Shown: positions 853 to 13,822 of the stretch, one piece after another
Position numbering within the stretch: the first letter of the stretch is position 1
Layout: the number at the start of each line of letters is the position of its first letter
From: an uncultured Nitrososphaeria archaeon
Lineage (GTDB): Archaea; Thermoproteota; Nitrososphaeria_A; Caldarchaeales; Wolframiiraptoraceae
Direction of reading: 5' to 3'
NCBI GenBank assembly: GCA_964488635.1
Contig: CAZAVQ010000001.1
Location: forward strand, 1 to 24,908
Length of the DNA: 24,908 nucleotides
Made by a program: the position numbers and the translations under genes
The notes under the pieces: model-generated
What the model was told of the DNA's origin: nothing
Database searches by the model: none
The model's input: the letters and a program-made list of their open reading frames with translations, nothing else

Positions 853-1790
853 GAATCATGGGCGTCATCAAGGGGTATGCCAGCGCGCCGGCGCCGCTCT
901 CCAGCATCTTTTCTCCCAAACTTTTCTATGACGATGAACCAAGACAGGATGTCGATGAGATAGGGGCTAGGGGAGGAGGCTTCACGCTCTCCAAGGGCGT
1001 CGAGACCCTGGTCACCTTCTCTCCTAGAGCAGGGGAGGACGTCAAGGTCTATGTCAACGATTTAGAACTCGCGTTTCCGACCTCGCTTCGAGCCGCCGAA
1101 GCCGCGAAGAAGCTCTTAGACTTGAGGGGAGAAGTGGAGATACGCCATAGAATTAGGGTTCCCCTCGGAACGGGGTTCGGGACGAGCGCCGCCGCCGCCC
1201 TGACGACCCTGCTCGCCTTATTCAGGATAGCCGGCAGGGGGATAACCCTCCAAGAGGCTTGCAAGATCGTCCATAGGTTGGAGCTTGAATGTAAGACGGG
1301 GTTGAACAGTGAGGCCGGATTTCTCTCAGAGGGGTTGATCTTGGTCTTGGAGGAGGGAGCTCCTCCGAGGGTTAGGGTGAACTCGATACCGCTTCCACAC
1401 GACTCCGTGATCATCGCCGTCGTCGCCGCCCCCCTCGACACATCGAACCTCTTGAGGAAGATGGAGAAGCTTAGGGAGATCGAGGAGATCGGCGATAAGA
1501 AGCTCGCGGAGATCCTGAGAAGACCAACCCCCGAGAACTTTCTCATGAAGTCCAAGGAGTTCGCTGAAGAGACTGGTTTAACCACGAAACGGGTTCGCGA
1601 AATCTTCGAGGAGCTTAGGAGACTCCCGGTAATAGGATATGCACAAAACATGATAGGCGAGGCCTGCCACATCCTAGTCCACGCTGAAAAGGTCGAAGAA
1701 GTCGCCTCAAAGTTGAGGGAAACTTTCCCGGAGTACCGCGTGATCTCATCTGAGATAAGCGGATTGATCAGGGCCTCCGCCGAGATCTAA
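849..1790 (+). CDS. GHMP-family kinase, pantoate kinase (PoK)-like
   Basis: GHMP ATP-binding loop 'PLGTGFGTSAAAAL', PoK-like 'GARGGGFTL', 'HRLE..TGL' and 'YAQNMIGEA'. Coupled to the upstream gene by a TTGA overlap. Confidence 0.8.
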   Translation: MRIMGVIKGYASAPAPLSSIFSPKLFYDDEPRQDVDEIGARGGGFTLSKGVETLVTFSPRAGEDVKVYVNDLELAFPTSLRAAEAAKKLLDLRGEVEIRHRIRVPLGTGFGTSAAAALTTLLALFRIAGRGITLQEACKIVHRLELECKTGLNSEAGFLSEGLILVLEEGAPPRVRVNSIPLPHDSVIIAVVAAPLDTSNLLRKMEKLREIEEIGDKKLAEILRRPTPENFLMKSKEFAEETGLTTKRVREIFEELRRLPVIGYAQNMIGEACHILVHAEKVEEVASKLRETFPEYRVISSEISGLIRASAEI

Positions 1791-2967
1791 ACTCCTCCAC
1801 CAATCCATCAAATTCCCGAATAAAATCGCGTTCCTTTCCGGCCGGGATGAGGGCTGATGCGGCGAAGCTGTGGCCATCTCCTGACCCACCCACGGCTTCA
1901 GAGGCCTTTATGGTTAAAGTTGAAACCGGAGGCATGGTGCCCCTCTTGATCTGATCCGATAGTTGCTTGGGAACTCTAACCGAGGTCTTCACCCATTCAC
2001 CTTCAATCCTTCCCAGGCCCGGGATGTCTGGTAGAAAATTCATGAAGCCTATCAAGTATTTTTGGGGGTTAACCACTCTCCGATAGCTGAGCATGGAGGT
2101 AAAGGTCCCAACCGCCTTCGAACCCAGCCCCTTGAACAGGTCGCCGAGGTGATACCACTGGACGAAGTTTCCCGAGTTTAATCCCCTCTTTGAGACTATA
2201 GCAAATGCTTGGGCGAATTTCTTTTTCCTCAGCGCCTCAAACTTCTCCGCCAGATCCTCGGGTATTCTCCTCTGTTTAAGATTCTCGATAGCTGAGAGAG
2301 GGGCGCCCTCATAGTAACCCATGCTCCCTATCGCGGTCAGAGTTGATGAGAGCTTATTCCAAGGCTTCTTCAAGAATTTGATGACATATTTTTCGGATTC
2401 TCCAGATCCCAACACCTCAATATCCCCAACCTCAACCGCGTCTTCAAGCGCGATCCTATTGAGACCTTTGAGGGGGCCCGGGATCTCCGCAGATCCTATA
2501 ATCGCCATCCATGCCGCGTCCTTTATGTCCGCGGCCTCGCGCATTAAGAGATAGGTTGCCGTCGATCCGCTGACGTCGGTTTCCCCGCTATAGCCATAGA
2601 ACTCTGGATTTAGGTGGATTAGTTTCTCGGACTCAACTTTTACTGGATCGTGGTGATCAGCTATTATCGCCTCCCCGCCGCTGCGCCCGATTTCCTCGGC
2701 TATCAGGTCCGCCCTCCCCGACCCTATATCGACGTAGATGTAGAGAGCTTCGCCCAGCGAGTGGATGAGCTTGACTATCTCGGGTGAAAGCTTTTCCACG
2801 CAGATCGGCCTCTGTTTTATGCCGAGCCTTTCTAGGGCCAGCGACGCTATGGCGCCCGCGCAGAGCCCATCCGCGTCGTCGTGGAATATGACTATGGCGT
2901 TAAGCGGGGATCCGCGTATCCTTTTTGCGGTCTCCCGGAGGTCGTCAAAATAGGCGGATTTGCTCAT
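1768..2967 (-). CDS. DHH-family phosphoesterase, RecJ/GAN-like
   Basis: Motif I 'HDDADG', motif II 'YVDIGS', motif III 'DHH', and a C-terminal DHHA1-like 'GSGDGHSFAAS'. Confidence 0.85.
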   Translation of the reverse strand: MSKSAYFDDLRETAKRIRGSPLNAIVIFHDDADGLCAGAIASLALERLGIKQRPICVEKLSPEIVKLIHSLGEALYIYVDIGSGRADLIAEEIGRSGGEAIIADHHDPVKVESEKLIHLNPEFYGYSGETDVSGSTATYLLMREAADIKDAAWMAIIGSAEIPGPLKGLNRIALEDAVEVGDIEVLGSGESEKYVIKFLKKPWNKLSSTLTAIGSMGYYEGAPLSAIENLKQRRIPEDLAEKFEALRKKKFAQAFAIVSKRGLNSGNFVQWYHLGDLFKGLGSKAVGTFTSMLSYRRVVNPQKYLIGFMNFLPDIPGLGRIEGEWVKTSVRVPKQLSDQIKRGTMPPVSTLTIKASEAVGGSGDGHSFAASALIPAGKERDFIREFDGLVEEFRSRRRP

Positions 2968-3021
2968 CGGTTTAGATTGTTACCCGGCGTCCTATAAGTC
3001 GTGGCCTCTTGAAAAATGAAT

Positions 3022-3029
3022 CTTATATA
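3022..3029 (+). promoter_or_regulatory. TATA box (CTTATATA) with purine-rich BRE-like element upstream, for the DUF2148 gene
   Basis: GAAAAATGAA-T-CTTATATA, about 26 nt before ATG 3055. Confidence 0.55.
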
Positions 3030-3054
3030 TGAAGAGAGATAGAGATAACGCCCG

Positions 3055-3603
3055 ATGAACATGGATCTGAAATCCGCCATAATTGATGCAGCACGGCTCA
3101 TGGCAGTAAGTGCCCGAACGGCTCCCAAGACCCGTGGAATAGACGATATAGAAATCGTCCTCCTAGAAAGGGAAGAGGAATTAAATAGATTGGCCGATAA
3201 GATGGAGGAGATCGGGAAAGAAACCGATAGGAAATTCTTCATACGAGACTCCAAGAACGTGAGACAATCCCAGGCCATATTACTGATAGGCGTGAAATCC
3301 TCGAAGCCGAAGGAACTCGACTGCGGCGGATGTGGATACAAGACCTGCGAAGAATTCAGAAAATCCGCGAGAATCTCAGGCAGGGATCTAACAGGCCCGG
3401 GGTGCGCTTTTCAGCTAATCGATCTCGGCATCGCGGTAGGCTCCGCGGCTAAGACCGCCTCTCTCTTAAATGTCGATAACAGGGTGATGTTTTCAATAGG
3501 CGTCGCCGCGGTTAAACTCGGCCTTCTAAAAGAATCGGATATCGCTTTAGGTATACCGCTCTCCGCCTATGGAAAGAACATATACTTCGATAGGAAGATG
3601 TGA
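3055..3603 (+). CDS. DUF2148 / ferredoxin-domain-containing protein (COG4739-like)
   Basis: 'MAVSARTAPKTRGIDD', Cys cluster 'CGGCGYKTC', 'GPGCAF..IDLGIAVGSA' and C-terminal 'GKNIYFDR' match my recollection of this family. Confidence 0.8.
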   Translation: MNMDLKSAIIDAARLMAVSARTAPKTRGIDDIEIVLLEREEELNRLADKMEEIGKETDRKFFIRDSKNVRQSQAILLIGVKSSKPKELDCGGCGYKTCEEFRKSARISGRDLTGPGCAFQLIDLGIAVGSAAKTASLLNVDNRVMFSIGVAAVKLGLLKESDIALGIPLSAYGKNIYFDRKM

Positions 3604-3614
3604 GATCTCGGTTA

Positions 3615-5900
3615 TTACTCGAAGAACTCCATTAACGTGGATTCGCCCGCCGTTTCTAAGATTTTTTCATGGTTTATGCCGACGGCTTCGAGGATCCGCC
3701 CACAGGCCGGGGCGACCTGTTTTTCTAAGTAGTAGTTCCAGTCGACCTCATCTCTCGTGATCTTGAAGTATGGCTTCACCCTCGCGTAAAGCGGCCCGGA
3801 TCCTTTCGCGATTATGTAGCCGACTTTGTCTCCCGGCTGAATTCTCCAACCTTCATTTACCAGCATCCTCGCGACGACTATATGCGGCTGGGTTGCGGAA
3901 TACTCGCTTAGGGGTCGGGTTATCTGCCTCCAGATTATGAGCTTCTTTAGGTCGACCTCACCGCGTTTCACCATCCTCGCGTATTCCCTTGCCTTGTTCA
4001 GGGCCTTCCCTGGGTTGCCGGTCTTCAGTAAAACCTCTATCGTAGCCTTCTGCGCTTCTCTTGCTATCGCGCTCCAGTCTCCGCGTATCGCCTCGAGCCC
4101 CACTATCTCGACCACGCCGTCCTCGGTTATCCCCGCGTATTTCTTCTTGGCCTCGGTGAAGACCACGCGCTTGAAGATTTTATCTATCTTCGCTTCCAGC
4201 CCTAGGTCTTCCTCTATCCATTTCATCAGCCTCTCGAGTCTATCCTCGTAGTTCTTCAGGAAGAGGGAGTCGGTGTCGGAGTAGATAACCCGCATCCCCA
4301 GCTCCTCCGCCTTCTTAATCGTCGAGTTTATGACCTCGCGCCCCCACGCGGTCGTCGCCTCCGCCACCTCTCTCGTATACCACCTCGCGCCCTTCCAACC
4401 AGTATAGCCGTAGATCGCGTTCGCGATTATCTTAACGGCCCTCTGACGCGCATCTAAAACCCTAGCCTCAACGCTTCCCTGGACCGCTCTCTTTAATTTC
4501 TCTTGTATCTTCCGACGCTCCTCGAGGAGGGTTTTTAGGGCATGTGGGAGGAAGCCTTCTGGGCTTGATTTGAATCTATATCCATTCGGCGCGATGTTTT
4601 CTCCATCCTCGCTGAGGGTGTCGAAGGAGATGTTGTATTTGATCATCAGGCTCGGATACATGGATCTGAAGTCTAGGACGGCGACGCTTTCATGCATTCC
4701 CGGGGTCGGCGCCTTGACCAAACCTCCCGGATAGCTCACATGCAATACCTCTGTCCTTTTCGGAATCAATTCTCCAACCTTCACGGCGAGAGACATCAAG
4801 TAGTTCTCCACCCTGAATCCGGCGGAGGCCGTTAGAACATAGTCGGCCGGCATCGAGGTCAGCTCGCTCAGGCTGAAGATGAAGTCCCTCACGGCCTCAT
4901 ATGCCTTCAGTATCGCTTCAGCCCTCTGCATAGAATACTTCTTCACGGCCTCCCTATCCTCAGCCCATTTCTCCGCGAGCTCGTACTCCTCTATCGTGTC
5001 GAACTCCGCCTCGACCCCGAGATAGCCGGCGAACTCCTCAAGGGTCTCGACCGTGAGTTCCGGGATCTCCCGGGCCATGTCTTCTAAGTCTATGTTAATC
5101 CTGCCGCGTATGGAGACGTGGCCGTGAACGCTCATCCTAGGCTCGGCTCCCAGTCTCCCAACCAGCGGCTTTATGCCGAGCTTTTTAGCGCGTTCCTCGA
5201 GGTAGTTCCATTGGACGCGATTTAGCCCGAACCCCACGATTATGTCCGGATCTTTTTCCCTGATCGCAGAGATGAAGGAGCTTATGACCTCCTCTTCCTC
5301 TCCCTCGAATTGAATCCTCTGACCATCGCTGAAGTAGATGGAGATCAACCTTATCGGGTCGCGTTCAGCCCTCGCAGACCCCTTCTCAGCGAAGAACACG
5401 AAATCAACGGCGGCGGCGGAGAGCCTGGGCGAAGGCGATGGCCCGAGGATGTTGATGGCCCTTGGTTTAAAGAAACGTATCCCTTCCTCTTCTCCGATGA
5501 ACTCTCCCTCAACATCTATCCAAGAACAGGGCTTAATCCCGGTTTCTAGGAGATATTTCGCGGCAGACCTTATGTCCTCTTCATAGACCTCGACCTCGCC
5601 GCCTATTCTCTTAACCAGCTTCTCGGCGACCTTTTCGGGGTCTTCGCGGTCAACGTATATCTTCACGGCCTCAACGGGTTTGCCTCGTATCCTCCTCTCA
5701 CAGCGCTCCCATTTCAGCTTCTCCGCCTTAAGGATGGACTCCGCCTTCTTCAAATCGCCGACGAGATAAAAACTCGGGATATACCTTTGTTTTATTACCC
5801 AAGTAGACCCATCTTCTCCCTTACACCAGAGCCAGAGAAGGGGCTCCTCCTCCTGCTCTGAAGCGATATCGAGTAACCATAGCCTAAGCTTCATTACCAT
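3615..5900 (-). CDS. polB3: Family B DNA polymerase, PolB3 type, with degenerate 3'-5' exonuclease
   Basis: Polymerase motifs are intact: 'YPGG', 'DFRSMYPS', 'KIIANAIYGY', 'YSDTDS', 'KKKYAG'. The exonuclease motifs are substituted (see findings). No intein. Confidence 0.92.
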   Translation of the reverse strand: MVMKLRLWLLDIASEQEEEPLLWLWCKGEDGSTWVIKQRYIPSFYLVGDLKKAESILKAEKLKWERCERRIRGKPVEAVKIYVDREDPEKVAEKLVKRIGGEVEVYEEDIRSAAKYLLETGIKPCSWIDVEGEFIGEEEGIRFFKPRAINILGPSPSPRLSAAAVDFVFFAEKGSARAERDPIRLISIYFSDGQRIQFEGEEEEVISSFISAIREKDPDIIVGFGLNRVQWNYLEERAKKLGIKPLVGRLGAEPRMSVHGHVSIRGRINIDLEDMAREIPELTVETLEEFAGYLGVEAEFDTIEEYELAEKWAEDREAVKKYSMQRAEAILKAYEAVRDFIFSLSELTSMPADYVLTASAGFRVENYLMSLAVKVGELIPKRTEVLHVSYPGGLVKAPTPGMHESVAVLDFRSMYPSLMIKYNISFDTLSEDGENIAPNGYRFKSSPEGFLPHALKTLLEERRKIQEKLKRAVQGSVEARVLDARQRAVKIIANAIYGYTGWKGARWYTREVAEATTAWGREVINSTIKKAEELGMRVIYSDTDSLFLKNYEDRLERLMKWIEEDLGLEAKIDKIFKRVVFTEAKKKYAGITEDGVVEIVGLEAIRGDWSAIAREAQKATIEVLLKTGNPGKALNKAREYARMVKRGEVDLKKLIIWRQITRPLSEYSATQPHIVVARMLVNEGWRIQPGDKVGYIIAKGSGPLYARVKPYFKITRDEVDWNYYLEKQVAPACGRILEAVGINHEKILETAGESTLMEFFE

Positions 5901-5980
5901 CTCAAAAATAGGATAAAGGAGAGATAAGTTTATCCAAGCTAGCGGGAAGCAGCGATATACGGGAAGAGAGGATGGGCTAG

Positions 5981-6002
5981 GTGGCGCCGGACGAGGCGCC
6001 GC
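5981..6002. repeat. GC-rich 8-bp hairpin GTGGCGCC-GGACGA-GGCGCCGC, with a T5 run at 6008-6012 on the + strand
   Basis: Inverted repeat read directly from the sequence (one G-U pair on the + strand); it lies between polB3 and the zinc-ribbon gene. Confidence 0.6.
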
Positions 6003-6010
6003 GTGTGTTT

Positions 6011-6256
6011 TTACGCCTCGGCCTTGACCTCGATCTTCACCTTCGCAGCCTCTTTCTCGACGTCCTCAGGGATCTGAACTACCTTGGCATTTCTCAGCGA
6101 CTTCTTCTTCCTCGGCGAATTCCTCAGCAGGATCCCGCAGTACGGGCACCTGACGCTGTCGGTGAGGTAATAGACGCGGCAGCGAGAGCAGTACTTGTAT
6201 CCATTCGCGTAACTCCTCCTCAGGGACATCTTAGGCTGCTTATCTGGGAACATCAT
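6011..6256 (-). CDS. Small zinc-ribbon protein (CxxC...CPxC)
   Basis: 'YANGYKYCSRCRVYYLTDSVRCPYCGILLRNSPR' resembles the thaumarchaeal Y.G.K.C..C...CP.CG..LR..PR small-protein family. Purine-rich GAGGGGG SD-like element upstream. Confidence 0.75.
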   Translation of the reverse strand: MMFPDKQPKMSLRRSYANGYKYCSRCRVYYLTDSVRCPYCGILLRNSPRKKKSLRNAKVVQIPEDVEKEAAKVKIEVKAEA

Positions 6257-6339
6257 TTTTCTCTAACCCCCTCGTTGTCCCCCTGGAGACCACTACATAA
6301 ACCTTATGTCCTAATTTGTAAGTAATGTAAATAGATACC

Positions 6340-7395
6340 ATGGCCGAAGAATCGCCAGAAACCGTCTTTAGGAGGCTTCAAAGGGTTGGAAAGGCCACTT
6401 ATGCGATCTCTCTTCCGAAGCGGTGGGTGGTAAGGAGGGGGCTTAGGCCAGGGGACACCGTGGAGATAAGCGAGGAACTTGATGGAAGCCTGAGGATAAA
6501 GCCGTTGGAGATAAAGTCTAGGGCCCTCTCCTGTAGGATAAACGCGGAGCTGTGCAGGAACCCGGCCCAACTAGCGAAGCTCGTCACAGCCTGTTATAGG
6601 GTCGGATATGACTCTATTGAGGTGTCATTCGCCGGCGGAGCCGCCCTCGAGACCTTGAAAACCGTAAGAGAGGTGATCGCGAAGGGGCTTCCGGGCTTCG
6701 AGCTTATCGAGGAAACGGGGTCAAAAATCTTCATTCAAAACGTATTGGATCAGTCAAGATATCCGCTGAACGACCTGCTGAGGAGGATCCAGCTCGTCGC
6801 CTCCGCGATATTCAACAACCTCATCGAGTTCGTAACCACGAGGAGATACGAGCTCATCCCCTATATCAAGGACCTTAGGGGGAGAGCTTCAGAGATCCTT
6901 CAGCTTCACAACCGGCTATTAATATTGTATCTTAAGAAGCGGGAGATCGGGCGATTCTTGAAGCCTAGGAGCGCCGCCCACATATACTCCGCAATAGTCG
7001 TGGCGAGGATACTTAATGAAGTTATTAACGATCTGGTCTCTTTCGCTGAGAGTATTTCGAAGATAAGGAAGAAGATCTGGGCGAGGCCTGAAGTCCACAG
7101 GATCTTAAGTCAGCTACTTGAATCCGCTTCAAGACTCTTTGATGACAGCGTGGCTTCCTATTTTTCCATAGATTTTGATCGGGCGATTTACGTTCTCAGC
7201 GTATCAGAGGATACGTTCTCAACAGTTATAGAAGAGACCCTTCGGGAGAAAATAGTCAAAGACCTTACCCTCAATAGATTCTTGATTCAATCGGCGATAC
7301 TTCTCAGGAATGTGACATCTAGATGCCATGAAATAGCCCAATTAACTCTTGACATGTTCGTGGAGTCCGAGAACCCGATCCTACAAAGAGTGTAG
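6340..7395 (+). CDS. AbrB/SpoVT-PhoU family regulator (archaeal phosphate uptake regulator type)
   Basis: N-terminal AbrB-like 'RRLQRVGKATYAISLPKRWV...GDTVEI...DGSLRI', followed by helical PhoU-like domains. Confidence 0.85.
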   Translation: MAEESPETVFRRLQRVGKATYAISLPKRWVVRRGLRPGDTVEISEELDGSLRIKPLEIKSRALSCRINAELCRNPAQLAKLVTACYRVGYDSIEVSFAGGAALETLKTVREVIAKGLPGFELIEETGSKIFIQNVLDQSRYPLNDLLRRIQLVASAIFNNLIEFVTTRRYELIPYIKDLRGRASEILQLHNRLLILYLKKREIGRFLKPRSAAHIYSAIVVARILNEVINDLVSFAESISKIRKKIWARPEVHRILSQLLESASRLFDDSVASYFSIDFDRAIYVLSVSEDTFSTVIEETLREKIVKDLTLNRFLIQSAILLRNVTSRCHEIAQLTLDMFVESENPILQRV

Positions 7396-7399
7396 GAAG

Positions 7400-8053
7400 C
7401 TAACCTAATCTTCTGAATAGACCTCCCTCCCCAACGAATGGGTTCATGGTCTTTTCCACACGGAGCACAGTCGAGGGACCGTGCCCAGGATATACCACGT
7501 AATCATCTGGGAGACAGAATAACTTGTTAAGAATTGAGGAGATCAGCTTCTCCGGATCACCTCCCAATAAATCAGTCCTCCCCACTGAGCCCGCGAAAAG
7601 CGTATCTCCCGTGAAAACACATCCCTCTGAGACAAAGCAAACGCTTCCCGGCGTGTGCCCCGGTGTGTGAAGCACCCTCAGCTCTAAGTTGCCCACTCTT
7701 ATTATATCGCCCTCCTTCATCAATCCATCCGGATGCGGAGGCGGTGGAATCGATATTCCTAAGAGACGCCCTGCTTCTAAGGGGGCCTGGGACAATATCT
7801 CTAGATCCTGTTCATGAATGTAAAATTTGCAATTCAGCTCCTTTACCAGATCGTTAACCGCGAGGACGTGGTCGAAGTGGCCGTGGGTCAAATATATTCC
7901 GAGCATTTTTACATCATGCCTCCCTATGACCGATAGAATCTTATATGGGTCGCCTCCCGCGTCTATAAGCACCCCTTCCTTGCGTTCTGAATCAAAGACC
8001 ACATAGGAGTTCGTGTCTAGGGGGCCGACGGTAATGCGTTCAACAACTAACAT
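7400..8053 (-). CDS. Metallo-beta-lactamase-fold hydrolase (glyoxalase II-like)
   Basis: 'THGHFDH', 'HTPGHTPG', 'FTGDTLF', 'YPGHG'. Start moved to ATG 8053, which has GGAG upstream and lies 4 nt after the dapA-like stop. Confidence 0.9.
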   Translation of the reverse strand: MLVVERITVGPLDTNSYVVFDSERKEGVLIDAGGDPYKILSVIGRHDVKMLGIYLTHGHFDHVLAVNDLVKELNCKFYIHEQDLEILSQAPLEAGRLLGISIPPPPHPDGLMKEGDIIRVGNLELRVLHTPGHTPGSVCFVSEGCVFTGDTLFAGSVGRTDLLGGDPEKLISSILNKLFCLPDDYVVYPGHGPSTVLRVEKTMNPFVGEGGLFRRLG

Positions 8054-8057
8054 CGTT

Positions 8058-8957
8058 TCAGCTCCGACCGCTGTGAGAATTAAGCACATTTTTCGCGGCT
8101 AGTCTGCGTTTGAGCTCCTCTAATTCCATTTTACTCGGCATTTTGAATGGGGGCTTCGGATAACCTACGTCGATCCCTCTCAGCCTCAGGAGCGCGTAGC
8201 TTGTGGGGATAGGGTCACCGGTGAATAAGATTTCCCTTAATTCTATTGCGAGGAACTGTTTCTTGAATGCCTCTTTGAGGTTTCCGGATTTTGCGAGGCT
8301 ATATAGTTCTGTGACGAGTTCGGGGAATATATTGGATAATCCAGATACGCAACCATCTGCTCCAGCCAGCACCGCGGGCACTAGAAGTGCTTCTGTCCCT
8401 ATCAAGAATACGAAATCCCGTTTCTCGACGGCCGACATGTAGCGGTAAAACCTGACCAAATCTCCGCTACTTTCCTTTATGCCCGCTATTCCCTCATCTG
8501 CTAGTTTGGAGAGCATGCCGGGAGGTAGGTTAAATCCAACTCTGGACGGGATATTGTATATGAATACGGGTAGATCTACGCTTGACAGCAACATCGCATA
8601 AAACCTGTGAACGGCCTCGACATCATAGCTATAGTAAAAGGGCGGGGTGCTCGCGACGGCATCCGCCCCTATTTGACGAGCATACTTCGCCAATTCTCTA
8701 GAGACCTCGGGAGACGTGGAACTCACATTCACTATTATTTTCGTGTTTCTTCCAGAAAACTCTATGCTTAGCTCGATGACCCTCTTTCGCTCCTCAACGG
8801 TCATCATAGGCCCGGATCCGAAAGTCCCGCACACGAATAAGTTTCGAATACCGTTTTTCCTTAGGAATTCTATGAAGTCTTTGAAGCGATCTTCAGACAC
8901 CGCGCCTTCCTTAGTGAAAGGCGTGAGGATGGGGGTGATCACGCCTTCAAATGTCAT
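8058..8957 (-). CDS. Dihydrodipicolinate synthase family aldolase (DapA/NAL/KDG aldolase superfamily)
   Basis: 'TPILTPF', 'GTFGSG', 'PPFYY', catalytic Tyr in 'IYNIP', Schiff-base Lys in 'GIKESSGD', and 'GADGCVSG'. Confidence 0.88.
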   Translation of the reverse strand: MTFEGVITPILTPFTKEGAVSEDRFKDFIEFLRKNGIRNLFVCGTFGSGPMMTVEERKRVIELSIEFSGRNTKIIVNVSSTSPEVSRELAKYARQIGADAVASTPPFYYSYDVEAVHRFYAMLLSSVDLPVFIYNIPSRVGFNLPPGMLSKLADEGIAGIKESSGDLVRFYRYMSAVEKRDFVFLIGTEALLVPAVLAGADGCVSGLSNIFPELVTELYSLAKSGNLKEAFKKQFLAIELREILFTGDPIPTSYALLRLRGIDVGYPKPPFKMPSKMELEELKRRLAAKNVLNSHSGRS

Positions 8958-9003
8958 TTCAACTTTAACTGGCGATTGGGGAAATATTTAAGGTTGTAAA
9001 AAT

Positions 9004-11496
9004 TTACATGAAATGTTCTAGACTTGTTATGCCTATGATTCTATCGAAATCTATTCCGAGCGCGTCGAGAACTTGCTCGAAGGTCGATGTCAAGTATTCC
9101 ACGTATTTATCGACGTCAATTTGATCTTTTCTAGCGAATTCTAATGGCTCGACCCCCTCGCTATCCTTCGTTTTGACGTAAGCAATTATGTCTCCTGGAA
9201 CTACCTGTATCCCCCTATTCATGAGCTTTCGAGCTGCCTTCACGTGGGGTGGAGTGGTCTTCACGTATCTCTCAACGCTCTTAGACAGCATTACCTTGAA
9301 CGATAAGTCCTCTAAATTGTATTCTCCCCTCTTTAAGGCGTAGTATTTCGACTTGAGAATCTCCATGATCTTCCTCTTCGCTTCCTCGAATTCCTCCTCA
9401 GATTTCACCTCACTCAGGATCTTCAACATATCCTCAAATGCGTCTTTGATGAATCTTGGTATGTGGCTCTTCTTACCGGTTAGCCCCTTAACATCGACTA
9501 TGCCCTTATCCGTGACGCCGAGATAATTCTTCTTCCTCTGAGAGAAGACGATGTATCTATATCGTTTATCTATCTCTAAGTCTAGTTTAAGCTCCTTCTT
9601 CACCCACGTCACCAACTCATTTATCACACGTTCATCTGAAGTCTTTAGGAAGAGGCTATCGGTGTCGCCGTAGAGGACCTCCACCCCTAGTTCCCTGGCC
9701 TTCTCCACAGCTTTCTTGAAAGCGTATCTGGCTATCGCCGCCGTGCTCTCGGCGACCGGAGGACAATAGAGCGGGAACTCCTCGAAACCGAAGACCCCAT
9801 ACGCCGCATTCAGGAATACCTTTAGCGCCCTCTGAACCACGCTGTACCACCTTCTCTGGATCTCCGGGATATTTTGATCTGAACTCTTCGGCTTATACCA
9901 CCGCACCCGGATGTCTCTGAGACAACCTATGACCTCGCTCTGAATTCCCCTCCTCTTCTTACATATCCAGTGAGTCGTCTCCGGCACGACGTTATCCCTG
10001 CATTCGGGATGAGGACATCTGGCGGTTTCATAGCTGAGATTCCATTCCTTTAGAACTGAGGGATAGAGTGATGAGAAGTCTAGGACCGTGACGTTGAAGT
10101 GTACCCCTGGAACCGGATTGACGACTATCGCGCCGCGGTATTTCTTCCCCTCTATCACGGCTTTGGTTGAGATGACGCCTTTCTCCTCCATGAGCTCGTC
10201 ATGCCTCGGTATCAGGCACCCGCGTTTTCTATGCTCGAAATAGAGAAGACTCTTAATCCACCCTGATACACCATGTCGACACACGTCTTCGATCGGCATC
10301 TTGCTTATCCTCGACAAAACGACCAACAGCTTCAGCAGTAACTCATTATCGGATGTCAGGAGCTCATGGACTAGAAGCGCGTCTTGGAAACAATATTTCG
10401 CGAGCTCTTCGCCCGTCAATTCCCCTATGGGCTTCTCTATCTCGATCTTACCCTTTCCCAAGAGAGCCTGCGCGATCGCCTCTAAGGTATGCTCCCTATA
10501 TTTATTGTCAAACGCGTAAACTTGAATGCTCTTATTCATGAACAATTTATAGAGATCGATGTGTATTCCCCGTCGGAGAGATGCGCCTTCCCTGCCCAAC
10601 GTTATCGGAATCTGCTCCTTCGGTATCTTCAGTACCTCGCCCCTGTGCCTTAAGTACGGCATATCGAAGTCGTCGCCGTTAAAAGTCGCCACCACGGGGT
10701 AACCATCCATGACCTTGAAAACGTCCCTTAGCATCTGAACCTCGTCTTCGTACACCTTGACATCGAATTGATCGCTCCGGGGCTCTTTAAATCCGGGGGT
10801 CTTCAGGAGATATACTTCCCTCCTACCATCGCTGCCGATCAACGCGACCGCGATTACCTTGTCCCTGGCCTTACTCGGCGATGGAACCCTCGTGGCTACG
10901 GGCGATAATACCTCGATATCTAATGAAAGGTGTTTGAACTTTGGCTGCGCGGCCTCTAAGAGGCTAACCCAATCCATTAGAAGCCTTTTCTCTTCTTCGG
11001 ATAAGTCGCCGAAGACCTCCTCGATCTTCTTCTTTATCTCTTCTTCGCCGGGCGCCGCCTCTATCAGCTTCCCGTCCATTAGATAATAGGGCGCGCATGG
11101 TGTAAGCCGCATATCATATAGATAAGAGAGGTGATAGGGGATGTCGGCCTCCCATGCCTTTATCTTCTCCCTTATGGAGTTACTGCTTCCACCTATGGCC
11201 AGGGGGTCGCTCGCTATTATCTTAGTTACCTCGATTTCCCGATCCCTCAGTAAATCATATTTTCTTTCCCTGACTAAATCGACGACCCCGGGTAGCCTCA
11301 TTTCCTTAACTTTCTCCAAGGTCTCCTTTACGTAGCAGTATGGTTTATGGCCGCTTTCATCGTAAACGATCTTAACTTCCTGAGACTCGGCGTTTAATAG
11401 TTTGAGATACGCCTTCCCCGCCTTACCGTCATAGCTACACCCTATCAAGAAGAAAAGATCTCCGTGAATGTGATCTTCAAGGCTGGTCTGTCCCAT
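9004..11496 (-). CDS. polB1: Family B DNA polymerase, PolB1 type, with intact proofreading
   Basis: PolB1-type N-terminus 'SYDGKAGKA'. ExoI 'DIE', ExoII 'FNGDDFD', ExoIII 'YCFQD'. Polymerase motifs 'YRGA', 'DFSSLYPS', 'NAAYG', 'YGDTDS'. PolB1-specific 'RCPHPEC...HWIC'. Confidence 0.95.
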   Translation of the reverse strand: MGQTSLEDHIHGDLFFLIGCSYDGKAGKAYLKLLNAESQEVKIVYDESGHKPYCYVKETLEKVKEMRLPGVVDLVRERKYDLLRDREIEVTKIIASDPLAIGGSSNSIREKIKAWEADIPYHLSYLYDMRLTPCAPYYLMDGKLIEAAPGEEEIKKKIEEVFGDLSEEEKRLLMDWVSLLEAAQPKFKHLSLDIEVLSPVATRVPSPSKARDKVIAVALIGSDGRREVYLLKTPGFKEPRSDQFDVKVYEDEVQMLRDVFKVMDGYPVVATFNGDDFDMPYLRHRGEVLKIPKEQIPITLGREGASLRRGIHIDLYKLFMNKSIQVYAFDNKYREHTLEAIAQALLGKGKIEIEKPIGELTGEELAKYCFQDALLVHELLTSDNELLLKLLVVLSRISKMPIEDVCRHGVSGWIKSLLYFEHRKRGCLIPRHDELMEEKGVISTKAVIEGKKYRGAIVVNPVPGVHFNVTVLDFSSLYPSVLKEWNLSYETARCPHPECRDNVVPETTHWICKKRRGIQSEVIGCLRDIRVRWYKPKSSDQNIPEIQRRWYSVVQRALKVFLNAAYGVFGFEEFPLYCPPVAESTAAIARYAFKKAVEKARELGVEVLYGDTDSLFLKTSDERVINELVTWVKKELKLDLEIDKRYRYIVFSQRKKNYLGVTDKGIVDVKGLTGKKSHIPRFIKDAFEDMLKILSEVKSEEEFEEAKRKIMEILKSKYYALKRGEYNLEDLSFKVMLSKSVERYVKTTPPHVKAARKLMNRGIQVVPGDIIAYVKTKDSEGVEPLEFARKDQIDVDKYVEYLTSTFEQVLDALGIDFDRIIGITSLEHFM

Positions 11497-11587: not shown

Positions 11588-12901
11588 ATGCGGATCGAGG
11601 AAACCGCCGAATCGCTGGCTCTAGCCTTTCTAGCCGTCAAAAGGCACGTGGAGGCCGAAATCTCGTTAAAGGCTGGGCTCTATCAGGTTTCAAAATCCAG
11701 AAATCCGAGTGTAAAAGTCTTGAGATTGGCTAGGAAGCTTCTCCACATCTACGCGGTCGAAGAGAATAGGATTAGCCCGATACTGAGCGAGATTTTAATG
11801 GGAGAGGAGATTTCAGAGGACTCTAGGATCCTCCTCAAGCTATTAATCTCCGGAATATTGTCGGATTTAGATCTCGGAGATCCCGAGAAACTGGTTAGGG
11901 CCTTAAGGAGGGCGTTGAAGAAGCTTTGGCCCGGAGACATAGAGCCCTGGATAGGGGTCATTAATGCAATTACCCGAAAAACCGTGGAGATACCTAAACT
12001 GGAAAATTACCCTCCCTGGTTCATCAGATTTCTCTACAAAGTTTTGGGTAGAGAGGAGGCCCGAGAACTCATGAGGTTCCAGGATGATAAGAAGCCCGTG
12101 ATGTATGCGGTTTTAAACTCGTTGATGTCGCAAAGCGATGAAATCTTAAGAGAGATGGAAAGGGAGGGAATAGAACTCGAGCCAGACACCAGGCTTCCGG
12201 GGATATATGTTGTAAAATCCGTCGAAGAGACGAGAAAACTGGTGAAATTCATCAAGAGGGGCCTCCTCCTAATTCAAGATTTCTCGAGCTATTATGCCGT
12301 TTACTCCGCCAAATTGAAGCCCGAAATGAGAGTTTTGGATATTTGCGCCGCCCCAGGTGCGAAAACGATCTTGATGGGAATCCGGATGAAGAATAGGGGG
12401 CTAATCATATCGGTAGATTCTTCTCTTGAGAGGATCAGAACCCATCTCAAGAGGATTAGGAAGATTGGGCTCAAGATCGTGGAAGACGTGGCCGCGGACG
12501 CGACCCTTCCATTACCCTTTAACTTTAAGGCCGACGTGGTGTTACTCGACCCCCCATGTAGCTCTACGGGGCTTTTTTGGAGGGAGCCGTCCTATAGGTG
12601 GCTCATCAAGCCTAGGCATGTAAAGATGTTCGCGAAATTACAGGCGAAGATGTTGGAGAACGCCGCAAGACACGTTAAAGAAGATGGTTATCTGATATAC
12701 TCTACATGCAGCATCTCACTGGAGGAAAACGAGATATTATTGGAGGACTTCCTAAAACGGCACCCGGAATTCGAATTAACGGAGATAGAGCCGGCCCTAG
12801 GATCGAGCGGACTACGCGGAATCTCTGAAGCCAGGAGACTTTATCCACATAGAGATCTATGTAATGGATTTTTCATCGCGAAGCTCTCGAAGAAGTGGTA
12901 G
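11588..12901 (+). CDS. RsmB/NOP2-family RNA (cytosine-C5) methyltransferase, long Fmu/Sun-like form
   Basis: 'DICAAPGAKT', 'DPPCSSTG', 'YSTCS' (both catalytic Cys present), 'GFFIAKL'. Confidence 0.9.
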   Translation: MRIEETAESLALAFLAVKRHVEAEISLKAGLYQVSKSRNPSVKVLRLARKLLHIYAVEENRISPILSEILMGEEISEDSRILLKLLISGILSDLDLGDPEKLVRALRRALKKLWPGDIEPWIGVINAITRKTVEIPKLENYPPWFIRFLYKVLGREEARELMRFQDDKKPVMYAVLNSLMSQSDEILREMEREGIELEPDTRLPGIYVVKSVEETRKLVKFIKRGLLLIQDFSSYYAVYSAKLKPEMRVLDICAAPGAKTILMGIRMKNRGLIISVDSSLERIRTHLKRIRKIGLKIVEDVAADATLPLPFNFKADVVLLDPPCSSTGLFWREPSYRWLIKPRHVKMFAKLQAKMLENAARHVKEDGYLIYSTCSISLEENEILLEDFLKRHPEFELTEIEPALGSSGLRGISEARRLYPHRDLCNGFFIAKLSKKW

Positions 12902-13757
12902 ACGCGGTTAACAACGCTTCATACACGGCGTAAACAGCATTTGCAGCACTCTGACCGTTATCGAAAAGTGGATTAACCTCAACGACGTCTATCCCCACCA
13001 GTTCTTTACTCGAAACCAATTTTATCAACTGAAATAGATGAAGAGGTGAAATTCCCCCGGGCTCGGGGTTTCCAACTCCAGGCGCATATGCGGGATCCAG
13101 CACATCGATGTCTATGCTTAGATATATCTTCTCCGAGGTTGAAATTATTTTAGAAATTTTTTCGCGACACTTCTGGACATCTTCGTTTATTTCGAGGCTT
13201 GTCACGATTCCTAACTTGTTTCCTTTAGCGTATTCGAACTCTTCTCTCGTATATGCCCTGGCTCCGATAACTAATGTCTTAAGATTCTTTCTCTTCTCAG
13301 TCAGCCTCCTTAACCAAGTAGTATGATTTATTCGGGTATCCATGTATTCATCTCGGAGATCTAGGTGTGCGTCAAATACGACCAAGATCACCTCTTCGGG
13401 AACCCTCGAGGCAGCCGCCAGGGTCAGGGTGTGCTCTCCGCCGAGGATCACCGGAATCTTCCTTTGGACCATAATTTTTTCAGTAACGGTTCCCACTCTT
13501 CTCAACATAGCCTCAACGTTATTCGTCGGAGGTAAATCGCCTAGGTCAGCTAACTCGATTAAATCTTCCTCGGGGATCTCCAAATTCTCGGACATCATTC
13601 TCAAGAAAATCGGCGCAAATCTCGACCCCGGCCTATAACTCGCCGTAGCATCGAAAGGAACCCCAAAAGCGACATACGTCGCTTCTTCAAAGCTTTTTTC
13701 CGAGCCTATAAACGATGGGCCTTTATAAAAATAGAAACGGATCCAATCCTCAGACAT
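12873..13757 (-). CDS. speB: Agmatinase
   Basis: 'GVPFD...RPGSRFAP', 'GGEHT', 'DAHLD', 'SIDIDVLDP..APG', 'DVVEVNP'. ATG 13757 preferred; GTG 13769 is an alternative start. Confidence 0.9.
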   Translation of the reverse strand: MSEDWIRFYFYKGPSFIGSEKSFEEATYVAFGVPFDATASYRPGSRFAPIFLRMMSENLEIPEEDLIELADLGDLPPTNNVEAMLRRVGTVTEKIMVQRKIPVILGGEHTLTLAAASRVPEEVILVVFDAHLDLRDEYMDTRINHTTWLRRLTEKRKNLKTLVIGARAYTREEFEYAKGNKLGIVTSLEINEDVQKCREKISKIISTSEKIYLSIDIDVLDPAYAPGVGNPEPGGISPLHLFQLIKLVSSKELVGIDVVEVNPLFDNGQSAANAVYAVYEALLTASTTSSRASR

Positions 13758-13822
13758 CCCCGGCTCCACATCATGTGAGGATGATTAATATTAAACTTGG
13801 CTCACATGAGCAGTGTGATCTT

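What the first reader, a model, noticed from the sequence alone, without database searches (positions are those of the whole stretch)
4923..5405. PolB3 with a dead proofreading exonuclease but an intact polymerase site, 3 kb from an intact PolB1
Seen: ExoI reads D-F-V instead of D-I-E (GTG at 5397-5399). ExoII reads 'GFGLNRVQW' instead of 'GYN..FDW' (CAA at 5211-5213). ExoIII reads 'YSMQR' instead of YxxxD (AGG at 4923-4925). Polymerase motifs A, B and C are all canonical and the ORF is full length. The neighbouring PolB1 keeps every exonuclease carboxylate. Known: the typically inactivated archaeal family is PolB2, whereas characterised PolB3 enzymes are proofreading. Inference: loss in all three exonuclease motifs with no ORF decay suggests specialisation, for example a low-fidelity, lesion-bypass or strand-displacing repair polymerase, with PolB1 (and possibly PolD) replicating.
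Basis: partly seen in the sequence, partly recalled or inferred. Interest (0 to 1): 0.72.

Follow-up and report, generated by a model that had tools for sequence, protein, structure and literature searches.

The report
Proofreading-dead PolB3 polymerase clade
This archaeal gene encodes a family-B DNA polymerase (PolB3 type) whose polymerase site is intact but whose proofreading site is destroyed, and the same loss is shared by a whole, apparently undescribed branch of PolB3 enzymes in Aigarchaeota, Bathyarchaeia and their relatives.

Summary
ORF 3615-5900(-), 761 aa, reads ExoI D-F-V, ExoII GFGLNRVQW and ExoIII YSMQR, so three of the four DEDD carboxylates are gone. Polymerase motifs A, B and C are canonical. 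The neighbour at 9004-11496(-) is a bona fide PolB1 with an intact exonuclease site.

The protein is a PolB3, not a PolB2. Its best solved relative by sequence and by fold is Pyrobaculum calidifontis PolB3 (5mdn). It lies inside the TACK PolB3 clade (NJ bootstrap 95-100). It keeps DTD in motif C and has no iRadA/PPB2 operon.

The loss is not local. None of the 120 closest homologues keeps the second ExoI carboxylate or the ExoIII aspartate, whereas 120/120 Thermoprotei PolB3 keep all four. The exo-dead sequences form one clade, sister to Thermoprotei PolB3 (bootstrap 59-72).

The dead domain is under purifying selection (dN/dS 0.08-0.19) and models confidently, so it is a retained scaffold and not decay.

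A RecJ-like nuclease gene sits next to polB3 in about 20 loci and is fused to it in one lineage.

The most likely role is a PCNA-tethered, non-proofreading accessory polymerase for lagging-strand, gap-filling or repair synthesis. That role is inferred, not shown. I found no published description of this clade.

The parts
3615..5900 (-). polB3 gene, 761 aa (gene callers in related contigs start one codon later, 760 aa): exonuclease-inactivated, polymerase-intact family-B DNA polymerase
   Evidence: Searches give the ORF. Pfam PF00136 and PF03104 hit. Best PDB sequence hit is 5mdn at E 8e-158. AF2 model has pLDDT 91.9; Foldseek best hit is 5mdn at TM 0.83.
5391..5408 (-). ExoI region V-D166-F-V168-F-F. 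Canonical PolB3 has F-D-I-E; here the Glu is Val.
5208..5234 (-). ExoII region GFGLNRVQ230W. Canonical PolB3 has GYNSNGFDW; here the Asn is Gly and the Asp is Gln.
4923..4937 (-). ExoIII region Y322-S-M-Q-R326. Canonical PolB3 has Y-x-x-x-D; the Tyr is kept and the Asp is Arg.
4650..4676 (-). Polymerase motif A, LDFRSMYPS, with catalytic Asp410 and steric-gate Tyr415.
   Evidence: Invariant in all homologues.
4404..4433 (-). Polymerase motif B, KIIANAIYGY.
4266..4283 (-). Polymerase motif C, YSDTDS, with both catalytic Asp residues.
3618..3641 (-). C-terminal PIP-box-like tail STLMEFFE, a putative PCNA-binding motif.
   Evidence: an L-x-x-F-F-type core is present in the last 20 residues of 90/118 clade members and 113/119 Thermoprotei PolB3. 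This is a sequence-level inference only.
1768..2967 (-). RecJ-like DHH/DHHA1 nuclease gene, 399 aa, downstream of polB3 on the same strand. The motifs DxD, DHH and GGSGDGH are intact.
   Evidence: Pfam DHH and DHHA1. PDB hits are a protein deposited only as 'Conserved protein' (7bhi), M. jannaschii RecJ2 and T. kodakarensis GAN (deposited as 'SsDNA-specific exonuclease', 5ghr), at E 1e-23 to 1e-22, and P. furiosus RecJ (5x4h, deposited as 'Uncharacterized protein') at about 1e-20. NCBIfam RecJ_archaeal scores 179 bits, below its cut-off. The gene is linked to polB3 in about 20 loci and fused to it in P0101.
3055..3603 (+). DUF2148 ferredoxin-domain gene lying between polB3 and recJ on the opposite strand. 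It is probably unrelated to the polymerase.
   Evidence: It is conserved at this position in the closest loci.
6011..6256 (-). 81-aa zinc-ribbon ORF (CxxC...CxxC), 110 bp upstream of polB3 on the same strand. It is more conserved than polB3 itself.
   Evidence: Weak RpoP-like hit below the cut-off. Called as a gene in L028 and L029.
9004..11496 (-). polB1 gene, 830 aa, with intact exonuclease and polymerase sites.

Best explanation
The gene is an orthologue of TACK-type archaeal PolB3. It belongs to a large, old subfamily in which the DEDD 3'-5' exonuclease site was lost while the polymerase site stayed intact.

Shown:
- The carboxylates that hold the two catalytic metals are replaced by hydrophobic, amide or basic residues: Val168, Gln230 and Arg326 here, and other non-acidic residues in relatives.
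- The rest of the exonuclease domain, including many residues invariant in proofreading PolB3, is kept and is under purifying selection.
- Motifs A, B and C, the steric-gate Tyr and a C-terminal PIP-like tail are conserved.

Inferred:
- The enzyme is an active, PCNA-tethered, dNTP-specific DNA polymerase that cannot edit its own errors.
- The dead domain serves as a structural scaffold, as in eukaryotic Pol alpha and Pol zeta.

Most likely role (inferred from analogy and gene context, not shown): short-tract synthesis where editing is dispensable and strand displacement is useful. That means lagging-strand or Okazaki-fragment completion, gap filling and repair or extension synthesis. The proofreading PolB1 encoded 3 kb away would do accurate bulk replication, together with PolD if present.

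The conserved neighbour, a RecJ/GAN-like nuclease that is fused to the polymerase in one lineage, is a candidate working partner. It could remove displaced 5' strands or primers, or trim 3' ends.
For: Identity and placement:
- 5mdn, which Kazlauskas et al. 2020 (PMC7544198) call PolB3, is the best hit by sequence (E 8e-158, against 1e-112 for Thermococcales PolB and 7e-40 for Sulfolobus PolB1).
- 5mdn is also the best hit by fold.
- NJ trees put the query inside a clade with Thermoprotei PolB3, with bootstrap 96% (192/200), 95 and 100.
- The exo-dead clade is monophyletic at bootstrap 72 and 59. All 20 of its representatives and all 57 of its members lack DEDD.
- The convergent polB3-dnaG synteny that Makarova et al. 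2014 (PMC4104785) describe for crenarchaea is found next to both exo-dead and DEDD members.

Specific loss of the site:
- 0/120 of the closest homologues keep the second ExoI carboxylate or the ExoIII aspartate, against 120/120 Thermoprotei PolB3. Polymerase residues are 120/120 in both sets.
- The positions lost are the catalytic ones. G174, P182, D217-P218-D219, N227, W231, R237, the P254...S257..GH.S..GR.N.D271 block and W312 are kept.

Selection:
- Whole-gene dN/dS is 0.05-0.12. The exonuclease domain gives 0.08 against L029 and 0.19 against L016, compared with 0.026 and 0.10 for the palm.
- Exo/palm divergence is 1.3-1.6 in this clade and 1.2-1.3 in proofreading PolB3.

Fold: AF2 pLDDT is 91.9, with the exonuclease domain at roughly 86-98.

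Context:
- The recJ-like gene is adjacent in about 20 loci, in two orientations.
- A PolB-RecJ fusion is present in three independent assemblies.

Analogy:
- Thermococcus PolB (a PolB3) acts in lagging-strand synthesis and Okazaki maturation through strand displacement (PMC13136892).
- Sulfolobus PolB3 is non-essential and affects damage sensitivity (PMC8100216).
Against: - No biochemical data exist for any member, as far as my searches show.
- Loss of activity is inferred from residues, not measured.
- Clade-specific conserved acidic positions exist in or at the edge of the exonuclease domain (E253, E304, E305, E307, D339).
- Monophyly of the exo-dead clade has only moderate NJ support. In a smaller tree the clade was paraphyletic in most replicates (monophyletic in 74/200).
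- The recJ linkage is not tied to the exonuclease loss. It also occurs next to a DEDD PolB3 (L047). It is absent from most Bathyarchaeia-type members, which have dnaG instead.
- The PIP-like tail is absent or unclear in about a quarter of clade members.
- PolD, PolB2 and Y-family polymerases in this genome were not examined, so the division of labour is conjecture.
Confidence: 0.7

Rival explanations
1. It is a basal member of PolB2, the translesion 'inactivated' family. The published TACK PolB2 lineages that retain the DxD motif sit closest to PolB3, and this protein could be one of them.
For: PMC11791011 reports TACK PolB2 sequences with an intact DxD motif and more complete exonuclease domains, placed nearest PolB3. 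Like PolB2, this protein has a dead exonuclease site. One relative (P0073, loci L032/L033) has a RadA-family gene 0.8 kb downstream.
Against: - No iRadA or PPB2 gene lies next to polB in the window or in any of about 110 related loci. The RadA gene near P0073 carries the HhH, RecA_N and Rad51 domains of a full-length RadA.
- Motif C is YSDTDS, and the ExoIII helix with its Tyr is present. In PolB2, ExoIII is missing and motif C has one Asp (PMC7544198).
- The protein is full length (761 aa) and about 38-44% identical to 5mdn.
- It is nested in the TACK PolB3 clade and shares the dnaG synteny.
- I had no PolB2 reference sequence, so no direct joint tree was made.
Confidence: 0.06
2. The exonuclease is still active, using substitute acidic residues or a one-metal mechanism, so the enzyme still proofreads.
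For: D166 is kept in the query and in half of the clade. Several acidic positions are conserved only in this clade (E253, E304, E305, E307, D339). The domain is strongly constrained.
Against: - No new conserved acidic residue appears inside the ExoI, ExoII or ExoIII segments.
- The replacing residues differ between sublineages: D/S/N/H at ExoI-1, I/V/F/L at ExoI-2, D/Q/H/I at ExoII and R/N at ExoIII. That is what is expected after loss of catalytic constraint.
- Arg at the ExoIII Asp position would occupy the metal site.
- The Glu-Glu stretch at 304-305 also occurs in proofreading Thermococcales PolB at the aligned position, so it is not a replacement site.
Confidence: 0.07
3. It is a dedicated translesion or mutator polymerase (lesion bypass or mismatch extender, Pol zeta-like) and not a replication-fork enzyme.
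For: - A dead exonuclease site is typical of bypass and extender B-family enzymes such as Pol zeta and PolB2 (PMC8764526, listed).
- The template-uracil 'read-ahead' pocket residues are also not conserved. KOD P90, V93 and F116 correspond to E, E and S here, while they are invariant in Thermoprotei PolB3.
- Loss of Sulfolobus PolB3 changes damage sensitivity.
Against: - There is no damage-response gene context. The neighbours are housekeeping genes, recJ, dnaG and polB1.
- The gene is universally retained and single-copy in context across a very broad clade, with a replicative-type active site and steric gate.
- Nothing here tests bypass.
- This rival overlaps with the best explanation and does not exclude it.
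Confidence: 0.15
4. It is a decaying or redundant paralogue (pseudo-enzyme in both sites or on its way to loss), or a mobile-element or viral polymerase.
For: PolB3 is dispensable in Sulfolobus and Thermococcus. One crenarchaeon has lost it (PMC6647314, listed).
Against: - dN/dS is 0.05-0.12.
- All polymerase catalytic residues are invariant in 120/120 homologues.
- Chromosomal synteny is conserved across classes.
- There are no integrase or viral genes nearby.
Confidence: 0.02

Closest known systems
Crenarchaeal (Thermoprotei) PolB3, e.g. Pyrobaculum calidifontis Pc-polymerase (PDB 5mdn) and Sulfolobus Dpo3
   Same: It is the sister clade in the trees. It has the same five-domain fold (TM 0.83), the same polymerase motifs, many identical non-catalytic exonuclease-domain residues, a C-terminal PIP-like tail, and the convergent dnaG neighbour seen in many members.
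   Different: These enzymes keep all four DEDD carboxylates (120/120) and the uracil-pocket residues. The query's clade keeps neither. The query matches no NCBIfam PolB equivalog; only the superfamily model TIGR00592 passes its cut-off.
Thermococcales PolB (Pfu, Tgo, KOD, 9°N), the biochemically best-known PolB3
   Same: Same family and fold (TM 0.85-0.86). A role in lagging-strand synthesis and Okazaki maturation alongside other replicases has been shown for this group (PMC13136892).
   Different: These are strong proofreaders with uracil read-ahead, and are more distant in sequence (about 33% identity). Engineered exo-minus mutants (D141A/E143A) are the laboratory equivalent of what this clade is naturally.
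Archaeal PolB2 (Dpo2) with iRadA and PPB2
   Same: A B-family paralogue with an inactivated exonuclease site that coexists with proofreading PolBs, and has a repair or translesion role.
   Different: PolB2 lacks ExoIII, usually has a single Asp in motif C plus a D(K/R) motif, is shorter, and is encoded in an operon with iRadA and PPB2. None of these applies here.
Eukaryotic Pol alpha and Pol zeta catalytic subunits
   Same: B-family polymerases with an active polymerase site and a structurally retained but catalytically dead exonuclease domain. They work beside proofreading paralogues in a division of labour.
   Different: They belong to a different clade (Delta-like), carry Cys-rich C-terminal domains and accessory subunits, and show no specific relationship to this clade. 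The resemblance is convergent.
Bacterial DNA polymerase I (polymerase plus 5'-3' nuclease in one chain)
   Same: Only for the fused form P0101 and as an analogy: a polymerase joined to a single-strand nuclease that could process the strand ahead during gap filling.
   Different: The folds are unrelated (A-family polymerase, FEN-type nuclease). The polarity and substrate of the RecJ-like partner are unknown.

Membership tests
Archaeal PolB3 (B3 group of the B1-3-like clade) | Phylogenetic placement with recognised PolB3 and apart from PolB1 | tested here: met
   The query groups with Thermoprotei PolB3 including 5mdn at NJ bootstrap 95-100 and 192/200. PDB score order is 5mdn, then Thermococcales PolB, then far below PolB1.
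Archaeal PolB3 (B3 group of the B1-3-like clade) | Complete N-terminal, exonuclease, palm, fingers and thumb architecture | tested here: met
   AF2 model has pLDDT 91.9 and pTM 0.88. Full-length Foldseek match to 5mdn at TM 0.83 and to KOD/9°N at TM 0.86.
Archaeal PolB3 (B3 group of the B1-3-like clade) | Canonical polymerase motifs A (DxxSLYPS-type), B (KxxxNSxYG-type) and C (DTDS) | tested here: met
Archaeal PolB3 (B3 group of the B1-3-like clade) | DEDD 3'-5' exonuclease catalytic residues. This is typical of all characterised members; it is not a phylogenetic criterion. | tested here: not met
   The pattern is D-V-Q-R instead of D-E-D-D.
Archaeal PolB3 (B3 group of the B1-3-like clade) | TACK polB3 gene context: convergent dnaG (Makarova et al. 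2014) | tested here: inconclusive
   The context is present next to many exo-dead clade members and next to DEDD members. It is not present in this window, where the neighbour is recJ-like. Locus L047 has polB3, recJ and dnaG together.
Archaeal PolB2 | Operon with iRadA and PPB2 | tested here: not met
   Neither gene is in the window or in the related loci. The only RadA-family neighbour (L032/L033) carries HhH, RecA_N and Rad51 domains, as a full-length RadA does.
Archaeal PolB2 | Motif C with one Asp plus a D(K/R) motif, and ExoIII absent | tested here: not met
   Motif C is YSDTDS. The ExoIII helix with Tyr322 is present.
Archaeal PolB2 | Clusters with PolB2 reference sequences in a tree | not tested
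Membership is argued against only indirectly, from nesting inside PolB3.
Archaeal PolB1 | Match to the PolB1 equivalog model and to the Sulfolobus PolB1 structure | tested here: not met
   The target scores 220 bits against a cut-off of 780 for NF004417. The neighbouring gene at 9004-11496 does meet it (1069 bits; 1s5j at E 9e-220).
Archaeal RecJ/GAN family (for the neighbour 1768-2967) | DHH and DHHA1 domains with motifs DxD, D, DHH and GGGH | tested here: met
   HDDADG, DIGSG, DHH and GGSGDGH are visible in the alignments to 7bhi and M. jannaschii RecJ2. Pfam reports DHH and DHHA1. The NCBIfam RecJ_archaeal score of 179 bits is below the 360 cut-off, so this is a divergent member. Polarity and GINS binding were not tested.

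The most novel reading that the evidence does not exclude
The exo-dead PolB3 and the adjacent RecJ-like nuclease act as one two-part machine, and in the P0101 lineage as a single chain. In this reading the polymerase has given up its own editing site and works with a DHH nuclease. One option is that the nuclease degrades the displaced 5' strand or RNA primer, giving Pol I-like nick translation in Okazaki maturation. The other is that it trims mismatched 3' ends in trans. This would be a previously unrecognised archaeal polymerase-nuclease module and a natural parallel to the split between polymerase and exonuclease subunits in PolD and bacterial Pol III.
Probability: 0.2. Interest if true: 0.8.

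Novelty: new variant of a known kind. Interest (0 to 1): 0.62.

Why it matters
PolB3 is treated in the literature I could search as the widespread, active, proofreading archaeal B-family polymerase, with PolB2 as 'the' inactivated group (Makarova 2014; Kazlauskas 2020).

If a whole branch of PolB3, covering Aigarchaeota, Bathyarchaeia and related TACK lineages, has been proofreading-dead since before those classes diverged, three things follow:
- PolB3 cannot be the high-fidelity replicase there. Models of who replicates what in these uncultured, globally abundant archaea need adjusting.
- B-family paralogues lost proofreading repeatedly and independently in archaea. This gives a prokaryotic parallel to the origin of Pol alpha and Pol zeta.
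- These are natural, thermostable, exo-minus B-family polymerases, of the kind that biotechnology currently makes by mutation.

The conserved link and the fusion with a RecJ-like nuclease give a concrete, testable lead on how archaeal PolB3 is coupled to strand processing.

Tried and rejected
- PolB2 assignment. I looked for iRadA/PPB2 neighbours in the window and in about 110 loci and found none. Motif C and ExoIII do not fit. Rejected, with the caveat that no PolB2 reference was available for a joint tree.
- Local oddity or sequencing error. Rejected: the same residues occur in independent assemblies, and the loss is clade-wide.
- Relaxed selection or decay of the exonuclease domain. Rejected by per-domain dN/dS. 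The domain is only modestly faster than in proofreading PolB3.
- 'RecJ compensates for the lost proofreading'. Weakened: recJ is also adjacent to a DEDD PolB3 (L047) and is missing from most Bathyarchaeia-type members. The linkage looks ancestral to TACK polB3 and not a response to the loss.
- Compensating acidic residues. Five clade-specific acidic columns were found, none inside the Exo motifs. Model coordinates are not retrievable, so distances could not be measured.
- Kazlauskas 2020 supplements, searched for the PolD/PolB distribution in Aigarchaeota: no hits.
- RNA evidence of expression: only DNA metagenome runs hold the sequence.
- ORFs 2964-3341(-) and 5981-6325(+) overlap better-supported genes on the other strand and are probably spurious.
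- Literature searches for a prior description of exonuclease-dead PolB3 found none. The library is open-access only, so absence is not proof.
Full report
**1. The observation**

The window carries a 761-codon ORF on the minus strand, 3615-5900.
- ExoI is V-D166-F-V168-F-F, with GTG at 5397-5399.
- ExoII is G-F-G-L-N-R-V-Q230-W, with CAA at 5211-5213.
- ExoIII is Y322-S-M-Q-R326, with AGG at 4923-4925.

In the HMMER alignment to the closest solved structure, Pyrobaculum calidifontis polymerase 5mdn, these residues lie opposite FDIE, GYNSNGFDW and YVLDD. Three of the four metal-binding carboxylates and the ExoII Asn are therefore replaced, and only the first ExoI Asp remains.

Motif A (LDFRSMYPS), motif B (KIIANAIYGY) and motif C (YSDTDS) are canonical.

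The second polymerase gene, 9004-11496(-), has DIE, NGDDFD and YCFQD. It matches Sulfolobus PolB1 (1s5j) at E 9e-220 and passes the NCBIfam PolB1 equivalog. It lies 3.1 kb from polB3.

**2. Which family**

The target's best PDB match is 5mdn, at E 8e-158. Thermococcales PolB follows at about 1e-112 and Sulfolobus PolB1 is far behind at 7e-40. Kazlauskas et al. 2020 (PMC7544198) explicitly call 5mdn a PolB3.

An AlphaFold2 model built on a 67-sequence alignment is confident (pLDDT 91.9, pTM 0.88). This includes the exonuclease domain, residues about 132-337. Its best Foldseek hit is again 5mdn, over the full length at TM 0.83.

In neighbour-joining trees the query belongs to a clade with Thermoprotei PolB3:
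- bootstrap 192/200 with a small outgroup set;
- bootstrap 95 among 145 representatives of 50%-identity clusters;
- bootstrap 100 in a third data set that adds metagenomic loci.

PolB2 is characterised by three things: loss of ExoIII, a single Asp in motif C with a D(K/R) motif, and an operon with iRadA and PPB2 (PMC11791011). None applies here. I had no PolB2 reference sequence, so a direct joint tree is missing. That is the main gap in the family assignment.

**3. The loss is clade-wide and old**

The organism is a Caldarchaeales (Aigarchaeota) archaeon close to Candidatus Wolframiiraptor (L002, 88% identity). It comes from hydrothermal vent and marine sediment metagenomes.

The 120 best homologues in a 5.8-billion-protein collection run down to 40% identity. 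Where sources name them, they are Aigarchaeota, Nitrososphaeria, Bathyarchaeia, Thermoproteota and Brockarchaeota-like MAGs.
- None has Glu at the second ExoI position, and none has Asp at ExoIII.
- All 120 keep the motif A Asp and Tyr, the motif B Lys and both motif C Asp residues.
- By contrast, 120/120 homologues of 5mdn (Pyrobaculum, Vulcanisaeta, Thermofilaceae, Hyperthermus, Thermogladius and others) keep all four carboxylates.

In the 145-representative tree the exo-dead sequences around the query form one clade of 20, with bootstrap 72. It is sister to the proteins with the D-E-D-D pattern that include 5mdn. In the third tree the clade has 57 members, all without DEDD, at bootstrap 59.

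A single ancient loss is the simplest reading, but support for monophyly is only moderate. At least two other PolB3 groups lost the site independently: P0349/P0382, and P0298/P0309/P0327/P0341/P0376, each at bootstrap 100. One sequence at the base of the DEDD clade (L065) reads D-E-V-A, a partial loss.

Shared synteny supports orthology. The convergent polB3-dnaG pair described for crenarchaea (Makarova et al. 2014) flanks both DEDD members (L030, L045, L059, L062, L063, L080, L086) and about 35 exo-dead members.

**4. Not decay**

dN/dS (Nei-Gojobori method) by comparison:

| Comparison | Whole gene | Exonuclease domain | Palm |
|---|---|---|---|
| 99%-identical relative (L028) | 0.09 (21 synonymous, 7 non-synonymous changes) | – | – |
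| L029 (89%) | 0.054 | 0.08 | 0.026 |
| L016 (78%) | 0.117 | 0.19 | 0.10 |

Across protein pairs, the exonuclease domain diverges 1.3-1.6 times as fast as the palm in this clade. The ratio is 1.2-1.3 in proofreading PolB3. So the dead domain is slightly relaxed but still strongly constrained.

The residues invariant in proofreading PolB3 that are lost here are essentially the catalytic-site ones: ExoI I-E, ExoII Y-N and F-D, the ExoIII Asp, and the Thr four residues after it. About 30 other invariant positions of the domain are kept.

Five acidic positions are conserved only in the exo-dead clade: E253, E304, E305, E307 and D339. None lies within the Exo motifs. The 304-305 pair has a counterpart in proofreading Thermococcales enzymes.

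**5. Other features**

- The steric-gate Tyr and all dNTP-binding residues are invariant, so this is a DNA polymerase and not an RNA polymerase.
- The C-terminus, STLMEFFE, is PIP-box-like, as in most relatives.
- The residues that form the template-uracil pocket in Thermococcales PolB (P90, V93, F116) are invariant in Thermoprotei PolB3. They are E, E and S in the query and variable across the clade. This suggests that read-ahead uracil sensing has gone too. That alignment region is less certain.

**6. Gene context**

Downstream on the same strand lies a 399-aa RecJ-like DHH/DHHA1 nuclease, 1768-2967(-), with all catalytic motifs. It is most similar to an entry deposited only as 'Conserved protein' (7bhi) and to M. 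jannaschii RecJ2, T. kodakarensis GAN and P. furiosus RecJ.
- An orthologue lies next to the exo-dead polB3 in about 20 loci, in two arrangements. In Caldarchaeales it is co-directional, 0.6-1.3 kb away. In other Nitrososphaeria it is convergent, 10-60 bp away.
- It is absent from two Geocrenenecus loci and from the Bathyarchaeia-type members, which have dnaG instead.
- In one lineage the two genes are fused. P0101 (1187 aa) has a DHH part 43% identical to the window's protein. The fusion appears in three independent assemblies. Its closest unfused relative has the two genes 67 bp apart.
- Locus L047, a DEDD PolB3, has polB3, recJ and dnaG in a row. The linkage therefore seems ancestral to TACK polB3 and is not a consequence of the exonuclease loss.

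Known archaeal RecJ proteins have either polarity and are part of the CMG helicase. They include 5'-3' DNA exonucleases, 3'-5' RNA/DNA exonucleases and a proposed proofreader of mismatched RNA primers (PMC5615345, PMC3675489, PMC5737688, listed).

Upstream of polB3, on the same strand, an 81-aa zinc-ribbon ORF (6011-6256) is more conserved than the polymerase. It is 100% identical in loci where PolB3 is 88-99% identical, and 80-89% identical where PolB3 is 67-78%. It has a weak, sub-threshold resemblance to RNA polymerase subunit P.

**7. Mechanism**

Shown: this is a PolB3 orthologue with an intact polymerase site, a destroyed DEDD site, a conserved exonuclease-domain scaffold and a PIP-like tail. 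It is maintained by selection across several archaeal classes.

Inferred: the enzyme polymerises DNA on PCNA without self-editing.

Most likely role: short-tract, strand-displacing synthesis at the lagging strand, in gaps or in repair. PolB1 (and PolD, which Raymann et al. 2014 infer for the Thaumarchaeota/Aigarchaeota ancestor) would provide accurate bulk synthesis. The basis is fourfold:
- the recent demonstration that Thermococcus PolB works in lagging-strand and Okazaki maturation through strand displacement (PMC13136892);
- the dispensability and damage phenotypes of Sulfolobus PolB3;
- the general knowledge that loss of 3'-5' exonuclease increases strand displacement in B-family enzymes;
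- the RecJ and dnaG context.

A dedicated translesion or extender role, as for Pol zeta, is compatible and cannot be separated from this by sequence alone.

**8. Novelty**

The sequences are public and annotated generically as 'DNA polymerase II' or 'DNA-directed DNA polymerase'. The two main surveys of archaeal PolB diversity treat PolB3 as active and single out PolB2 as the inactivated group. Five full-text searches found no description or biochemical study of an exonuclease-dead PolB3 clade. The library covers open-access papers only.

I rate this as a new variant of a known kind. It is worth a specialist's attention mainly because of its breadth and the RecJ fusion, not because of this one gene.

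Noticed in passing
window 6011-6256 (-): An 81-aa zinc-ribbon ORF sits 110 bp upstream of polB3 on the same strand. It is 100% identical in L002, L028 and L029, and 80-89% identical in loci whose PolB3 is only 67-78% identical. It has a weak, sub-threshold RpoP-like hit (NF001606, 22 bits). It could be RNA polymerase subunit P with extensions, or a small partner of the polymerase.
   Followed up: partly
window 1768-2967 (-); L027 3886-7449: A RecJ-like DHH nuclease gene is conserved next to polB3. It occurs as a natural PolB3-RecJ fusion protein (P0101/P0389, 1187 aa; P0388 partial) in three independent assemblies.
   Followed up: yes
window 5550-5640 (-), residues about 88-116 of PolB3: The residues aligned to the template-uracil pocket of Thermococcales PolB (P90, V93, F116) are E, E and S here. 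They are invariant P, V/I and F/Y in 119 Thermoprotei PolB3. This suggests loss of uracil read-ahead sensing together with proofreading.
   Followed up: partly
P0349, P0382; P0298, P0309, P0327, P0341, P0376; L065: At least two other PolB3 groups outside the query's clade lack the DEDD residues while keeping the polymerase Asp residues. One sequence at the base of the DEDD clade reads D-E-V-A. Loss of proofreading therefore seems recurrent in PolB3. Their taxa are unknown.
   Followed up: partly
L023, L036-L053 and others; L030, L045, L059-L063, L080, L086: A convergent polB3-dnaG (Toprim) gene pair, usually under 40 bp apart (up to about 2.7 kb in a few loci), is shared by exo-dead Bathyarchaeia-type and DEDD Thermoprotei-type polB3. 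L047 has polB3, recJ and dnaG together, possibly the ancestral TACK arrangement.
   Followed up: partly
window 3615-11496: polB3 and polB1 lie within a few kilobases of each other on the same strand. This arrangement is conserved in the closest relatives (L004, L006, L016, L018, L028, L029).
   Followed up: partly
L021 10001-12307: A MAG labelled 'bacterium' (BP4.bin65) carries an exo-dead PolB3-like gene, 30% identical to the query, that groups inside the archaeal exo-dead clade with P0270. This points to mis-binning, mislabelling or transfer.
   Followed up: no
window 11588-12901 (+) and 16906-17850 (-): There are two RsmB/F-family RNA methyltransferase genes within 5 kb of each other. Also present are an arginase-family gene (12873-13769), a large MptA/GT87-like membrane glycosyltransferase (13715-16069) and an ETF alpha/beta plus FAD-oxidase cluster (19371-22536).
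   Followed up: no
window 2964-3341 (-) and 5981-6325 (+): These mechanical ORFs overlap better-supported genes on the opposite strand (DUF2148 and the zinc-ribbon ORF). Gene callers do not call them in related contigs, so they are probably spurious.
   Followed up: partly
window 6340-7395 (+): A 351-aa protein has an AbrB/MazE-type N-terminal DNA-binding domain and is divergently placed relative to the zinc-ribbon-polB3 unit. It is conserved at this position in nine related loci and could be a local regulator.
   Followed up: no
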